This document shows, one piece after another, positions 13,603-19,223 of a stretch of 64,000 bases of DNA. The position numbers were made by a program, and so were the translations under genes. This DNA is from an uncultured Nitrososphaerota archaeon (GTDB lineage Archaea > Thermoproteota > Nitrososphaeria > Nitrososphaerales > Nitrosopumilaceae): the NCBI GenBank assembly GCA_963701075.1, contig OY969559.1, forward strand, positions 608,001 to 672,000. Reading direction: 5' to 3'. The notes beneath the pieces are model-generated. The model had not been told where the DNA came from, did no database searches, and saw only the letters and a program-made list of their open reading frames with translations. Numbering within the stretch: position 1 is the stretch's first letter; each line of letters opens with the position of its first letter.

Positions 13603-13919
13603 GGTAGTAGCTCTGCTAGTTCCAGTCTAGGCAGATGGCCTCATCTCAAGTCAAGCAAGATCCGCCACGTAGACGACGCAGCGTGAATGCTCTACCTTAG
13701 GATTGCTCCCTCCCGGACCTCATCCCTTTCGGCAGTTAGAACTTGAGAGCTATCCCTTCGGACAGTCTCAGTCCTGCATCCACCCGCTTCGGCGTGATTT
13801 CATCTCCGCAAGTCAAGCGAGTATCATCCATCTAGAGATTTACCCAGCAGTTGCTGACCTCTGCATATAGCCGGTTTCAGAGGCAGGGCACGGCTAGCGC
13901 CCCAGTCCTACCTACTACC
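13603..13919 (-). ncRNA. Archaeal SRP (7S) RNA
   Basis: GC-rich ~317 nt, complementary termini GGTAGTAG/CTACTACC, helix-8 motif AGGTCCGGGAGGGAGCA on minus strand. Confidence 0.93.
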
Positions 13920-16166: not shown

Positions 16167-16514
16167 ATGGGAATTGTGATAGTTTCAACATATCCAAACA
16201 AAAAATCCATATCTAAAATCGCAAATATGATAGTAAACAAGGGATTAGCAGCATGTGTTAATTATACAAAAATAAACTCTGTATATACATGGAAAAAAAA
16301 GACAGAAAACACCGAGGAGTTTTTGGCACTTTTCAAGACTACAGCAAAAACAAAAGAATTACTCAAAAAGGAGATCGCAAAAACACATCCATACAAAGTT
16401 CCAGAAATTGTGGAGCTAAAAGTGGACTCGGTAAATACGTCCTATCAGATTTGGCTCATGAATTCAACTCGTAAGGCTAAACCTAAGAAGAGAGACAATG
16501 CCTCCAAGAGATGA
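16167..16514 (+). CDS. cutA: Divalent-cation tolerance protein CutA
   Basis: GLAACVN, SVYTWK, THPYKVPEI; start moved to ATG 16167. Confidence 0.92.
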   Translation: MGIVIVSTYPNKKSISKIANMIVNKGLAACVNYTKINSVYTWKKKTENTEEFLALFKTTAKTKELLKKEIAKTHPYKVPEIVELKVDSVNTSYQIWLMNSTRKAKPKKRDNASKR

Positions 16515-17516
16515 GATCCTAAGGCCGACGTCTGTTGTTGAATCTACTGCATATACTTCTACTCCCTTTCCCTCGGCTTGATTTAGAAATGCAATAATCT
16601 TGTCTTCATCATGATTTTCAAAAATCTTGTCAGAGAAGACTAGTGATTGTACAGCTCCTGCTTCGTTTGCTCTTGATGTTTCGTCAAAACCCATTGTAAA
16701 CTTGTTAATTTTTTTATTTACCATTAGCATTATCTCATCTAAAATAGAAGATACCTTTGCAATCTTACTTTTGGTGAGCGCCTGTCTCATCGTTTCTGAC
16801 TTGATAAATGTGTAGATGCCGTCTTCTCCACTTGAATCAATGCCATCGATTACACGAATTGTGTGCCCCTTAATGGATGGTAATTCAAAAAGAAAATTTC
16901 CTAACCTTTTTTTTGTTTCTCCGGGGCCAAATATTATGATCTCATCTCTTTCTCTTATTGTAGATGATACTGCACCTTGAACCTCTTTGAAAAAATCTTC
17001 TATATTGAATTTAGATTTGTATCTCTTGCCACTTGCGCCAGAGTATAGGTTAGGTATAATCTTGAGATGAGTACCAGTTAACCTTCCTATGCCACAATCA
17101 GTAGTATCTACTGCAATAAGTAAGAAGCTACCTGTGTCTTTCTTTCCAAAAAGCAATTTATTTTCAATATCGCTCCAATTTTTCTTAATCAAAGTTATTG
17201 GTTCACCAATTCTCAGAGTTATGGAATGATGTGAACCCTTGCTAACAGATTCACTGTCTGATTCTGTTATGATTCCATGAACTTTTAATCTATCAACAAC
17301 ATCATCTATAGAGATTTTTTCTACATCTAGAGCAACACGAATTTTGATCCTTTCTCCTCTGTCAGGTCTTGCAAAGTCTTTGTCTTGTTTTACAACACGG
17401 GTAGTATCTCCTATTATTCTGTCTTGATTACGTATGACCCTTCGTAATGTAAAAAGATCATCAGACTCTTCAGGTATTAATGCAACTGAATTCTCATCGA
17501 TTTTCTTTGTAATCAA
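16464..17516 (-). CDS. pelA: mRNA surveillance protein pelota
   Basis: PEESDDLFTL, GSHHSITL, GPGETK, LGGIVSLLRF. Confidence 0.93.
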   Translation of the reverse strand: MITKKIDENSVALIPEESDDLFTLRRVIRNQDRIIGDTTRVVKQDKDFARPDRGERIKIRVALDVEKISIDDVVDRLKVHGIITESDSESVSKGSHHSITLRIGEPITLIKKNWSDIENKLLFGKKDTGSFLLIAVDTTDCGIGRLTGTHLKIIPNLYSGASGKRYKSKFNIEDFFKEVQGAVSSTIRERDEIIIFGPGETKKRLGNFLFELPSIKGHTIRVIDGIDSSGEDGIYTFIKSETMRQALTKSKIAKVSSILDEIMLMVNKKINKFTMGFDETSRANEAGAVQSLVFSDKIFENHDEDKIIAFLNQAEGKGVEVYAVDSTTDVGLRISSLGGIVSLLRFSLTS

Positions 17517-17558: not shown

Positions 17559-17981
17559 CTAATTCGTTAATTCATTGGGCTTGACCTGTTTCTCTTCCGC
17601 CTTTTTCCTCAGGTAGTTTTGAACCCATTCTTGTGTTATTACTCCGGCTTCAGTCAAGTTTACCAGTGTATTGGTAGATGCCTCGCCAGTTACCTTTCCT
17701 GTGGTGCGCCTGATTTGTCTCCACTTTAGATTTGTATTGCCACTTTTTGACGAATAAATTATGCCAAGAACCTCTTTTGCGTTGACAAAAATCATATCAC
17801 GAATCTTCTTGAGAGTTACCTTGTCTGCTGCCTCTACATAGATTAGACCAGGCGAAGTCTCGCGTTCAGGAAACACTTCGTAATCCTCCAAGTAGCTTTC
17901 TGGAACAAACGAATTACATGTACTTAGGACTACGAATTTCCTAAAACTTTCAAGCGAACAGGTAGCGTCGATTGTTACCAT
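17559..17981 (-). CDS. Hypothetical protein
   Basis: 140-aa ATG ORF with no competing long ORF; no recognised motif. Confidence 0.7.
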   Translation of the reverse strand: MVTIDATCSLESFRKFVVLSTCNSFVPESYLEDYEVFPERETSPGLIYVEAADKVTLKKIRDMIFVNAKEVLGIIYSSKSGNTNLKWRQIRRTTGKVTGEASTNTLVNLTEAGVITQEWVQNYLRKKAEEKQVKPNELTN

Positions 17982-18054
17982 TTGTCTAGATTTCGTAACC
18001 GCCTTTTATCAAGCTTCTTGAAAGACTCAATTAGGAACGAGAAAAATTACTTGC

Positions 18055-18117
18055 TGCAGGCGTTGATGACCAAATCCCTTTGATTTGATGAGAAGGATCT
18101 TGAGTTCTGAGCCTGCA
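18055..18117 (+). ncRNA. C/D-box guide sRNA
   Basis: Terminal stem TGCAGGC/GCCTGCA; C TTGATGA 18063-18069, D' TTGA 18080-18083, C' TTGATGA 18085-18091, D CTGA 18107-18110; intergenic. Confidence 0.85.
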
Positions 18118-18152
18118 CTTGATTTTTATGAAATGAGAAATTCTACTATACC

Positions 18153-18572
18153 ATGAAATCACTCACTGAATATCTAATATTTAATGTTCAATCACGAATA
18201 GGATTTGTGAATATCACATCTGATGTACGAAAAATAATTCAGAAGAGTGGAATCAAAGAGGGCATCTGCCTAGTTAATGCGATGCATATTACATCTAGTG
18301 TATTTATCAACGATGATGAAAACGGTCTTCATCAAGACTATGAGCGATGGCTTGAAGACTTGGCACCTCATGAACCAATATCAAAATACGAGCACAATAA
18401 AACAGGAGAAGATAATGCAGACGCACATCTTAAGAGGCAAATCATGGGAAGAGAAGTTGTAGTTGCGATAACAAAAGGTCAACTTGATTTTGGACCGTGG
18501 GAACAGATATTCTATGGTGAGTTTGATGGGCGAAGATCAAAACGTGTGCTTGTAAAGATTATTGGCGAATAA
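18153..18572 (+). CDS. yjbQ: YjbQ/UPF0047 family protein
   Basis: [36 protein letters not shown]. Confidence 0.93.
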
Positions 18573-18770: not shown

Positions 18771-19223
18771 CTAAATCTTACAACAGTTTCCACGTGGGAT
18801 GTCATGTCCATGGGGGCACTTTCTTGGATGTTTTAACATTGTACATAGGGCGTCCGTGAACTGTTCATTCATGTGATGCTCTATTCCGCAAACCATCTCT
18901 TCATCAATGTCAACCTTTAGAGCACTATCCATCAAGACTTCAAGCAGTCTGCTATTTCGCATCATATTGGAGCCAATTTGTTCTCCATTCTTAGTTAGGG
19001 AAACTCCGCCTTTGTTGTAGTTTACAAGTTTAGTATCATCCAGCTTTTTTAACATCTGCACCACGCTTGGCTGTCTTACGTTTAGCATCTTTGCTATCGT
19101 GCTTATCTTTACTGGATCTCCACCTTCCTTTATGTGCCATATTGCCTTTAAGTACATCTCAACATGTTCAGCCTCTGCAGTCCCAACAAACAGAACTTCT
19201 TGGTCTTTCATAATATTTTGCAT
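18771..19223 (-). CDS. DtxR/MntR-family metal-dependent transcriptional regulator
   Basis: EMYLKAI, IAKMLNVRQPSV HTH, RLLEVL, GIEHHM, CPHGHDIP. Confidence 0.92.
   Translation of the reverse strand: MQNIMKDQEVLFVGTAEAEHVEMYLKAIWHIKEGGDPVKISTIAKMLNVRQPSVVQMLKKLDDTKLVNYNKGGVSLTKNGEQIGSNMMRNSRLLEVLMDSALKVDIDEEMVCGIEHHMNEQFTDALCTMLKHPRKCPHGHDIPRGNCCKI

What the first reader, a model, noticed from the sequence alone, without database searches (positions are those of the whole stretch)
18055..18117. Intergenic C/D-box sRNA predicted to 2'-O-methylate wobble C34 of tRNA-Leu(CAA)
Seen: a complete C-D'-C'-D architecture closed by a 7-bp stem. The D guide GAAGGATCTTGAGTT is complementary to 5'-(G/A)ACUCAAGAUCCUUC, which reads as an anticodon arm (GGA-CU-CAA-GA-UCC). 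Established N+5 rule: the fifth base upstream of CTGA is G, which pairs with the C of CAA (position 34). The D' guide CCAAATCCCT would target 5'-AGGGAUUUGG, which I cannot place. tRNA-Leu(CAG) in this window matches the D guide poorly. Inference: sRNA-guided Cm34 on the UUG-decoding tRNA.
Basis: partly seen in the sequence, partly recalled or inferred. Interest (0 to 1): 0.7.

Follow-up and report, generated by a model that had tools for sequence, protein, structure and literature searches.

The report
Guide RNA for leucine-tRNA wobble methylation
This 63-base stretch is a genuine small guide RNA that most likely directs a methyl group onto the first anticodon base of one leucine tRNA in an ammonia-oxidising archaeon; the type is already known from heat-loving archaea.

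Summary
Window 18055-18117 (+) has C, D', C' and D boxes closed by a 7-bp stem. The predicted target exists. ARAGORN's "tRNA-Ser(cga)" at G000:C1:858379-858479 (-) is really tRNA-Leu(CAA) with a 15-nt intron after position 37. Its spliced anticodon arm pairs with the D guide over 15 positions (13 Watson-Crick, 2 G.U), and C34 sits opposite the fifth guide base.

The boxes alone are not significant. The weight comes from conservation:
- The guide plus D box occurs in 146 of 401 genomes of the order, against 1 for the reversed control.
- It occurs in 128 of 401 genomes of the phylum.
- The terminal stem covaries.
- Guide and tRNA pair over at least 10 contiguous positions in 30 of 32 genomes.
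- Fibrillarin, Nop5 and L7Ae are encoded.

The D' guide is also conserved across the phylum, but I found no target for it. Methylation and expression are not shown. Guides for C34 of tRNA-Leu(CAA) are already described in Pyrococcus, so this is a new member of a known kind, apparently unreported in ammonia-oxidising archaea.

The parts
18055..18061 (+). 5' strand of the terminal stem (TGCAGGC)
   Evidence: Pairs perfectly with 18111-18117. The stem covaries across 40 distinct homologues: 86.4% of cells paired against 70.6% in shuffles, and 6 of 7 pairs show changes on both sides. RNAalifold predicts the same stem and no other helix.
18063..18069 (+). Box C (UUGAUGA)
   Evidence: The TGA and a following G are invariant in alignment A1.
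18070..18079 (+). D' guide/spacer CCAAATCCCT (10 nt), with no identified target
   Evidence: Related D' spacers are kept across the family (consensus (T/A)ATCCC(T)), the order (TAGCCC(T)) and the phylum. The best match in the genome's own rRNA, tRNA and SRP RNA is only 7.5 of 10.
18080..18083 (+). Box D' (UUGA; the GA is conserved)
   Evidence: The aligned column block ends in GA in nearly all rows of A1, as TTGA, GCGA, GTGA or CTGA.
18086..18091 (+). Box C' (UGAUGA)
18092..18106 (+). D guide GAAGGATCTTGAGTT. G18102 is the fifth base upstream of box D and pairs with C34 of tRNA-Leu(CAA).
   Evidence: The core GATCTTGAGT is invariant in all 40 distinct homologues. It forms 13 Watson-Crick and 2 G.U pairs with the spliced anticodon arm, duplex energy -22.0 kcal/mol. 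At least 10 contiguous pairs are present in 30 of 32 genomes.
18107..18110 (+). Box D (CUGA)
   Evidence: Conserved together with the guide in 146 of 401 genomes of the order, against 1 of 401 for the reversed control.
18111..18117 (+). 3' strand of the terminal stem (GCCTGCA)
18123..18129 (+). T-rich tract TTTTTAT between the sRNA and the UPF0047 gene (ATG at 18153). It may be the sRNA terminator, the TATA box of the next gene, or both (inference).
   Evidence: A similar T-rich tract follows the sRNA in other genera of the family. The sRNA lies about 35 nt upstream of the UPF0047 gene in 13 of 13 Nitrosopumilaceae-type loci.

Best explanation
Window 18055-18117 (+) encodes an archaeal box C/D small RNA.

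Inferred assembly: it binds L7Ae, Nop5 and fibrillarin, all of which the genome encodes.

Shown by sequence: its D guide base-pairs with the anticodon arm of tRNA-Leu(CAA), positions 30/31 to 41-44.

Inferred from the established fifth-base rule: fibrillarin then 2'-O-methylates C34, the wobble base that reads the UUG codon.

The tRNA gene carries a 15-nt intron after position 37, and the guide pairs across the exon junction. The first intron bases repeat the start of exon 2, so the unspliced precursor also offers 10-12 pairs. Either form could therefore be the substrate.

The D' spacer is conserved but has no recognised target, so the RNA behaves as a single-guide tRNA-specific sRNA.

The host is a Nitrosopumilaceae archaeon, probably Nitrosotalea.
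For: - Anatomy.
- Target: the tRNA-Leu(CAA) gene is at C1:858379-858479 (-). Its spliced arm is the only strong D-guide target in 9.5 kb of stable RNA. Duplex energy is -22.0 kcal/mol spliced and -16.2 unspliced.
- Conservation in the genus: strong matches in 20 of 24 same-genus genomes.
- Conservation in the order: exact guide plus D box in 146 of 401 genomes (104 of 112 in the host's family), against 1 of 401 for the reversed control.
- Covariance model R1: it finds homologues in 34 of 36 genomes, most of them chosen because the exact pattern missed them, including four families the exact pattern had missed entirely. Five of these 34 (G012, G016, G072, G404 and the unviewed G012-type hit) are, or were not shown not to be, the tRNA-Met paralogue.
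- Conservation in the phylum: 128 of 401 genomes, 69 of about 336 outside the order, against 10 control hits. Of 30 such loci inspected, 25 are clear C/D sRNAs.
- Terminal stem covariation.
- Guide-target pairing in 32 genomes, counted as contiguous pairs from guide position 2: 14 pairs in 8 genomes, 12 in 7, 11 in 12, 10 in 3 and 7 in 2. Compensatory changes occur at C41:G to U41:A (4 of 5 genomes of family f12) and U42:A to A42:U (f5).
- Machinery: fibrillarin, Nop5 and L7Ae genes are present.
- A paralogous sRNA at C1:867444-867511 pairs over 11 nt with tRNA-Met(CAU), again with C34 at the fifth position.
- Precedent: Pyrococcus sRNAs aimed at position 34 of tRNA-Leu(CAA), Leu(UAA), Met and Trp (PMC7994747 passages; PMC7668247 passages).

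Genomes G011 and G019, flagged unpublished, are 2 of the 32 rows and are counted. G012 is counted.
Against: - No direct evidence of the RNA or of Cm34. The only RNA-library support is one 196-nt metatranscriptome contig from a relative covering 18001-18129, which could be DNA carry-over.
- The boxes plus stem are not significant on their own.
- There is no Rfam match at gathering score.
- The spacers are 10 nt (D') and 15 nt (D), not the roughly 12 nt I recall as typical of archaeal sRNAs.
- D' is UUGA, not CUGA.
- In family f13 (2 of 2 genomes with both sequences) only 7 contiguous pairs remain.
- In families f15 and f10 the C and D boxes are degenerate.
- In 11 same-genus genomes the unspliced precursor pairs slightly longer (12-14) than the spliced tRNA (11), so the substrate form is open.
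- The conserved D' spacer is unexplained.
- The promoter was not located.
Confidence: 0.85

Rival explanations
1. The same sRNA also, or instead, acts on tRNA-Leu(UAA), giving Um34 or a derivative. That tRNA's anticodon arm differs only at position 34 and in the outer stem.
For: The tRNA-Leu(UAA) gene at about C1:11940-12062 (-) reads GACTTAAGATC.. and scores 9 of 12 with the 12-nt guide when unspliced. I found no separate Leu(UAA) guide sRNA in this genome (R1 at E up to 10). Pyrococcus has a guide for Leu(UAA) position 34 (PMC7994747 passage).
Against: Position 34 would form a G.U pair with the guide's fifth base. From recalled in vitro work, a Watson-Crick pair at the target site is needed for efficient methylation. 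Pairing also breaks at position 42 (C against A). Pyrococcus uses distinct sRNAs for the two tRNAs.
Confidence: 0.12
2. The RNA works mainly through its conserved D' element on an unidentified target, or as a chaperone for pre-tRNA-Leu folding or splicing, with methylation of C34 secondary or absent.
For: The D' spacer is conserved across family, order and phylum although no target was found. The D guide spans the splice junction, and the intron's first bases mimic exon 2.
Against: The most strongly conserved block is the D guide plus box D. The invariant 10-mer places C34 exactly at the fifth position in all homologues. Intron-less tRNA-Leu(CAA) genes keep the guide (G039 and families f12, f5, f6). 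No D' complement was found in rRNA, tRNA or SRP RNA.
Confidence: 0.06
3. The element is a cis-acting 5' leader or L7Ae-binding kink-turn regulator of the downstream UPF0047 gene, not a trans-acting guide.
For: It sits about 35 nt upstream of the UPF0047 start codon on the same strand, and this arrangement holds in 13 of 13 Nitrosopumilaceae-type loci.
Against: In 2 of 2 Nitrososphaeraceae loci the UPF0047 gene lacks the element, yet R1 homologues carrying the same guide occur elsewhere in family f15 genomes, which I take to be Nitrososphaeraceae from genome size only. A T-rich tract separates the sRNA from the gene. A cis leader would not need an invariant 10-mer antisense to a tRNA.
Confidence: 0.03
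4. Chance resemblance to C/D boxes, with no function.
For: Loose box patterns with short stems arise by chance at about 0.6 per simulated genome. There is no Rfam match at threshold.
Against: Conservation far above the control (146 against 1 of 401; 128 genomes against 10 control hits), stem covariation and a unique target match.
Confidence: 0.01

Closest known systems
[quoted passage not shown] Original paper: Clouet d'Orval et al. 2001, which is not held. Known here only from passages of PMC7994747 and PMC7668247.
   Same: A trans-acting C/D guide antisense to the anticodon loop of tRNA-Leu(CAA), with the wobble C at the fifth position. A companion guide for tRNA-Met C34 also exists in this genome.
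   Different: The host is a mesophilic ammonia oxidiser of another phylum. Sequence homology to the Pyrococcus RNA was not tested, because I had no Pyrococcus sequence. The spacers are 10 and 15 nt. The target tRNA gene has an intron that the guide bridges.
Haloferax volcanii tRNA-Trp intron C/D RNA (Cm34, Um39), and the H. volcanii box C/D guide for pre-tRNA-Met Cm34 (the latter recalled, not read)
   Same: Fibrillarin-guided wobble ribose methylation of an intron-containing tRNA. The precursor can be the substrate.
   Different: Here the guide is a separate gene about 232 kb from the tRNA gene, not an intron. Whether the substrate is the precursor or the mature tRNA is undecided.
Single-guide tRNA-targeting sRNAs of Pyrobaculum (Lui et al. 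2018, PMC6009581, passages; summarised in PMC7994747)
   Same: [quoted passage not shown]
   Different: The Pyrobaculum examples listed in the passage are Trp, Gln, Val and Thr, not Leu(CAA). Here the orphan D' spacer is itself conserved across a phylum.
Sulfolobus acidocaldarius dual guide for tRNA-Gln U34 and G18 (PMC7668247 passage)
   Same: A wobble-directed C/D sRNA in the same phylum. It gives a precedent for a second guide acting elsewhere on a tRNA.
   Different: I found no D-loop or other complement to the D' spacer in tRNA-Leu(CAA) or in any other tRNA of this genome.
Bacterial TrmL (YibK), a protein-only Cm34/cmnm5Um34 methyltransferase of tRNA-Leu(CAA/UAA) (abstracts of PMC3763551 and PMC4615657 in the listing)
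   Same: Same chemical outcome on the same isoacceptor.
   Different: A stand-alone SPOUT enzyme with no guide RNA. The relationship is analogous, not homologous.

Membership tests
Archaeal box C/D methylation-guide sRNA | Box C (RUGAUGA) near the 5' end and box D (CUGA) near the 3' end | tested here: met
   UUGAUGA at 18063-18069 and CUGA at 18107-18110. The first C-box base is U rather than a purine.
Archaeal box C/D methylation-guide sRNA | Internal D' and C' boxes | tested here: met
   UUGA at 18080-18083 and UGAUGA at 18086-18091. D' departs from CUGA at its first base. The GA is conserved in A1.
Archaeal box C/D methylation-guide sRNA | Terminal stem that closes the C/D kink-turn | tested here: met
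   7 bp in the window. Covariation: 6 of 7 pairs have compensatory changes, and 86.4% of cells are paired against 19-46% in slid controls. RNAalifold agrees.
Archaeal box C/D methylation-guide sRNA | A guide of about 10 nt or more complementary to a stable RNA, with the target nucleotide opposite the fifth base upstream of D or D' | tested here: met
   D guide: 15 pairs with spliced tRNA-Leu(CAA), C34 at position 5. At least 10 contiguous pairs in 30 of 32 genomes. The D' guide has no target.
Archaeal box C/D methylation-guide sRNA | Spacers of about 12 nt between boxes (recalled as typical of archaeal sRNAs) | tested here: inconclusive
   Observed 10 nt (D') and 15 nt (D). The 14-15-nt D spacer is kept in most homologues. 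I measured no typical value for this lineage.
Archaeal box C/D methylation-guide sRNA | The host encodes L7Ae, Nop5 and fibrillarin | tested here: met
   PF01269 at C1:1827596-1828252 (291.8 bits), PF01798 at C1:1826761-1827420 (232 bits) and PF01248 at C1:101875-102147 (104.7 bits).
Archaeal box C/D methylation-guide sRNA | Expressed as a stable RNA of about 50-70 nt bound by L7Ae | not testable with these tools
   Only Logan contigs were available. One metatranscriptome contig from a relative covers 18001-18129, which does not show transcription.
Archaeal box C/D methylation-guide sRNA | 2'-O-methylation present at the predicted nucleotide | not testable with these tools
   No modification data are available for this organism.
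Any curated Rfam C/D family | Score at or above the family's gathering threshold | tested here: not met
   No match at gathering score in the window. Best sub-threshold match: SNORD103, 25.2 bits against 45.
Pyrococcus tRNA-Leu(CAA) C34 guide sRNA | Sequence homology beyond the shared target | not tested
The original paper is not held.

The most novel reading that the evidence does not exclude
The D' spacer has a relative in the same position across the whole phylum, written ACUCU(A/G)GCC(C/U) or similar. It may therefore recognise a second conserved partner that is not rRNA, tRNA or SRP RNA. Alternatively, it may have a non-guide role in assembling the particle or handling pre-tRNA-Leu. Under this reading, this ancient sRNA would do more than place one methyl group.
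Probability: 0.2. Interest if true: 0.55.

Novelty: new member of a known kind. Interest (0 to 1): 0.35.

Why it matters
Mesophilic archaea keep very few C/D guide RNAs. This genome appears to have only a handful. At least two of them aim at the wobble cytidine of a tRNA: Leu(CAA) here and Met(CAU) at C1:867444-867511.

The Leu guide is retained from ammonia oxidisers to distant families of the same phylum. This suggests that ribose methylation of C34 on the UUG-reading tRNA is under long-term selection, presumably for decoding accuracy (inference).

It also fills an annotation gap in two ways. The RNA is in no Rfam family, and the target tRNA-Leu(CAA) is mis-called by a standard tRNA finder.

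I did not find the RNA described for Thaumarchaeota in five library searches, judged from their listings and from passages of two papers. These searches could not use the string "C/D", and subscription papers and the Lowe-lab snoRNA database were not visible.

Tried and rejected
1. D' guide target search. All of these failed:
- The genome's own rRNAs, 5S, SRP RNA and tRNAs, allowing G.U pairs. The best score was 7.5 of 10, in the variable arm/T stem of tRNA-Leu(CAA) itself, with no support from relatives.
- Exact 10-mer complements in this genome lie in coding-looking sequence (7 hits; about 3.7 expected from genome size, my arithmetic).
- In G032, 5 exact hits, none in an Rfam RNA.
- In five family genomes, 8 extra exact hits, none in an Rfam RNA. 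G169 has none apart from the sRNA's own antisense.
- In five f4/f13 genomes, the 20 fetched loci (out of 34 exact hits) contain no tRNA. G057 has only the antisense hit. MAGs may lack rRNA genes, so those negatives are weak.

2. SRP RNA as the D' target. A 9-nt match in family f1 does not track the guide in 26 genomes. Rejected.

3. Conserved pairing between the D' and D guides. It is present in the single-sequence fold but absent from the consensus fold. Rejected as a general feature.

4. A supposed compensatory change in G015 and G010, entered in my notes. The full table showed it was wrong.

5. The bulge-helix-bulge motif of the intron. RNAfold of the arm gave nothing stable. The intron boundaries can slide over the repeated AUC.

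6. Expression. Only contigs with small word shares were available.

7. Promoter. Not located; the promoter tool covers only bacterial sigma-70.

8. A GCGGATTTGG match near C1:12368. It lies in coding-looking sequence that I read as a histidine-kinase ATPase motif (no family search was run).

9. My first automatic splicing script mis-spliced several tRNAs. I replaced it with inspected intron lengths.

Full report
**What is there.** Window 18055-18117 (+) reads as follows: stem TGCAGGC, two bases, box C UUGAUGA, a 10-nt spacer CCAAATCCCT, box D' UUGA, UU, box C' UGAUGA, a 15-nt spacer GAAGGATCTTGAGTT, box D CUGA, stem GCCTGCA. It lies between a 140-aa ORF with no Pfam match on the minus strand (17559-17981) and a UPF0047-family gene on the plus strand (18153-18572). 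The window is G000:C1:608001-672000 of a single-contig 1.916-Mb genome with 38.6% G+C. It also holds an archaeal SRP RNA.

**Is it more than chance?** Not on the boxes alone. A loose C-D'-C'-D pattern finds 6 sites in the genome, two of them with a flanking stem of 5 or more pairs (this one with 7, another with 6). Ten simulated genomes with matched dinucleotide content give 5-15 sites each, with 0-1 carrying such a stem. Rfam has no match at threshold. Below threshold, 18 of 19 matches are C/D-box families.

**The target.**
- ARAGORN and the Rfam tRNA model list no Leu(CAA) in the genome.
- The gene that ARAGORN calls "tRNA-Ser(cga) i(38,15)" at C1:858379-858479 (-) has the anticodon arm ..GAAGGA CUCAAG [15 nt] A UCCUUU.., an A discriminator and a long variable arm.
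- With the 15 nt removed it folds with a 7-bp acceptor stem, a 6-bp anticodon stem, the loop CUCAAGA and a T arm. It is tRNA-Leu(CAA) with an intron after position 37.
- No unspliced genomic sequence matches the full guide complement.
- Against 9.5 kb of 16S, 23S, 5S, SRP RNA and all called tRNAs, the spliced arm is the single outstanding hit: 13 Watson-Crick pairs and two terminal G.U pairs out of 15. The next best scored 9.
- Guide position 5, G18102, faces C34.
- The unspliced gene gives 11 pairs, because the intron begins AUC like exon 2. Duplex energies are -22.0 kcal/mol spliced and -16.2 unspliced.

**Conservation.**
- BLAST of the region finds near-identical copies in 20 of 24 genomes of the same genus. 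The four without a copy are 54-76% complete. It also finds recognisable C/D homologues in six other families.
- The exact word GATCTTGAGTNCTGA occurs, usually once, in 146 of 401 genomes sampled from the order (104 of 112 in the host's family). The reversed control occurs in 1. Of the 30 loci fetched, 28 are C/D sRNAs and two are not (L066, L080).
- An alignment of 40 distinct sequences from 12 families keeps the 10-mer GATCTTGAGT invariant, while the stem and spacers vary.
- The terminal stem covaries: 6 of 7 pairs show double changes, 51 cells are changed on both sides against 15.2 ± 5.4 in shuffles, and 86.4% of cells are paired against 19-46% when the partner is slid. RNAalifold returns this stem and nothing else.
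- Covariance model R1 finds a match in 34 of 36 genomes, most of them chosen because the exact word had missed them. In families f15, f10, f4, f18 and f6 these matches keep the guide but carry variant D boxes (AAGA, AGGA, UGGA, CGGA, CCGA). In f15 and f10 the C boxes are also degenerate (AUGAC..). In f15, C-box position 5 tends to change with D-box position 2 (judged by eye, not counted).
- Across the phylum, ATCTTGAGTNCTGA occurs in 128 of 401 genomes, 69 of about 336 outside the order. The reversed word gives 10 hits in 9 genomes. Of the 30 fetched loci, 25 are clear C/D sRNAs.
- In named records, R1 finds the sRNA about 35 nt upstream of the UPF0047 gene in 13 of 13 loci titled Nitrosotalea, Nitrosotenuis, Nitrosopumilus, Nitrosomaritimum, Nitrosopumilaceae or similar. 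It finds it in 0 of 67 others: 64 bacterial, 2 Nitrososphaeraceae and 1 Thorarchaeota.
- This, together with earlier notes of the scan, makes the host a Nitrosopumilaceae archaeon, probably Nitrosotalea.

**Guide and tRNA together.** For 32 genomes I had both sequences, with intron lengths set by inspection. Contiguous pairs from guide position 2 with the spliced tRNA were:

| Contiguous pairs | Genomes | Which |
|---|---|---|
| 14 | 8 | the host's clade |
| 12 | 7 | |
| 11 | 12 | |
| 10 | 3 | G061, G038, G033 |
| 7 | 2 | family f13, where a hairpin is inserted before the guide |

- Position 41 is C:G in most genomes but U:A in 4 of 5 f12 genomes. Position 42 is U:A in the host's clade and A:U in f5. 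These are compensatory changes.
- Beyond position 41-42, pairing is not maintained. The working duplex is therefore 10-12 bp, and the outer three bases of the 15-nt spacer are not consistently used.
- In 11 same-genus genomes the unspliced gene pairs over 12-14 positions against 11 for the spliced form. In the host's clade it is the reverse. The data do not say whether precursor or mature tRNA is the substrate.
- Rows G011 and G019 come from genomes flagged unpublished.

**Machinery and paralogue.**
- Fibrillarin and Nop5 are adjacent at C1:1826761-1828252, and L7Ae is at C1:101875-102147.
- R1 also detects a weaker paralogue at C1:867444-867511 (+). Its D guide pairs over 11 nt with the tRNA-Met(CAU) gene at C1:1801561-1801657, again with C34 at the fifth position. 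Relatives of this paralogue appear in G016, G072 and G404.

**The D' spacer.**
- It is CCAAATCCCT here. Within the genus, CCATATCCAT and CCATATCCCT also occur, with one-base insertions in some genomes.
- The family consensus is (T/A)ATCCC(T). Most other families of the order have TAGCCC(T). Distant families of the phylum have ACUCU(A/G)GCC(C/U) or similar.
- Such retention suggests function, yet every target search failed (see Tried and rejected).
- This matches the published pattern in which tRNA-directed sRNAs use one guide and the other is orphan (PMC7994747 passage). The depth of conservation of this orphan is still unexplained.

**Comparison with what is known.**
- Passages of a 2021 review state that four Pyrococcus C/D sRNAs target the first anticodon position of tRNA-Leu(CAA), Leu(UAA), Met and Trp (PMC7994747).
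- A 2020 study lists tRNA-Leu(CAA) C34 among fibrillarin-guided sites predicted in P. furiosus. It explains Cm34 as locking C34 onto G-ending codons, and it notes a Sulfolobus guide for tRNA-Gln U34 and G18 (PMC7668247 passages).
- Pyrobaculum wobble guides are single-target (PMC6009581 passages).
- The original 2001 paper is not held.
- Five searches for thaumarchaeal C/D sRNAs, judged from their listings, and passages of two papers gave no description of this RNA. The Nitrosotalea devanaterra genome paper mentions seven small-RNA genes without detail.
- The searches could not use the string "C/D", and supplements were not consulted.

**Verdict.** This is a real, ancient box C/D sRNA that most likely guides Cm34 of tRNA-Leu(CAA). 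It is a new member of a known kind. Expression, protein binding and the modification itself remain to be shown.

Noticed in passing
G000:C1:867444-867511 (+), outside the window: A paralogous box C/D sRNA with stem GGATGC/GCATCC. Its D guide AAGATTATGAGT (D box GTGA) pairs over 11 nt with the tRNA-Met(CAU) gene at C1:1801561-1801657 and puts C34 at the fifth position. Relatives occur in G016, G072 and G404.
   Followed up: partly
G000:C1:1886930-1887085 (+), outside the window: A tRNA gene that ARAGORN calls Pro(tgg) with a 71-nt intron. The insert holds C/D-like boxes (ATGATCA, CTGA, GATGATGT, GTGA) and a CTCCAG word, so it may be a tRNA (possibly Trp) with an intron-encoded C/D RNA. Its structure was not resolved.
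   Followed up: partly
G000:C1:11940-12062 (-), outside the window: tRNA-Leu(UAA) with two apparent introns, one in the D arm and one after position 37. ARAGORN mis-called it tRNA-Asp with a 468-nt intron.
   Followed up: partly
G000:C1:793158-793207 (-) and C1:1478053-1478102 (-), outside the window: Two further C/D-like candidates. The D spacer of the first pairs over 9 nt with 23S rRNA near position 2877 of the gene (UACCCCAGG). No convincing target was found for the second.
   Followed up: partly
L113-L117, L119, L120, L313, L314 (families f12, f6, f5, f13): Upstream of the anticodon loop of tRNA-Leu(CAA), the DNA does not continue as a normal 5' anticodon stem (for example ..GGGGGCAG + about 13 nt + A CTCAAG). 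This suggests a non-canonical intron inside the anticodon stem.
   Followed up: no
L131-L144 (family f15, presumably Nitrososphaeraceae, judged from genome size only): Homologues keep the guide but have non-consensus boxes: C as AUGAC(U/A/G)N and D as AGGA, UGGA or AAGA. C-box position 5 and D-box position 2 appear to change together, U.U to C-G (not counted formally).
   Followed up: no
window 18153-18572 (+): The UPF0047 protein is 71-87% identical to homologues in records titled as many bacterial phyla (Planctomycetota, Verrucomicrobiota, Chloroflexota and others) as well as archaea. That is unusually high cross-domain conservation.
   Followed up: no
window 13605-13917 (-) and 18055-18117 (+): The SRP RNA gene lies about 4.1 kb from the sRNA. 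The same spacing recurs in G002, G045, G051, G082 and G151. It is probably conserved gene order only.
   Followed up: no
L215, L219, L223, L230 (G103, family f4): A repeated element of about 90 nt or more, containing ..CTTGATAAGGGCTAGAGTAC.., occurs at least five times in this genome. Two copies lie 198 nt apart.
   Followed up: no
window 16464-17516 (-) and 18771-19223 (-): Neighbouring genes: a 350-aa protein with eRF1 domains 1 and 3 (Pelota/aRF1-like) and a DtxR-type iron-dependent repressor.
   Followed up: no
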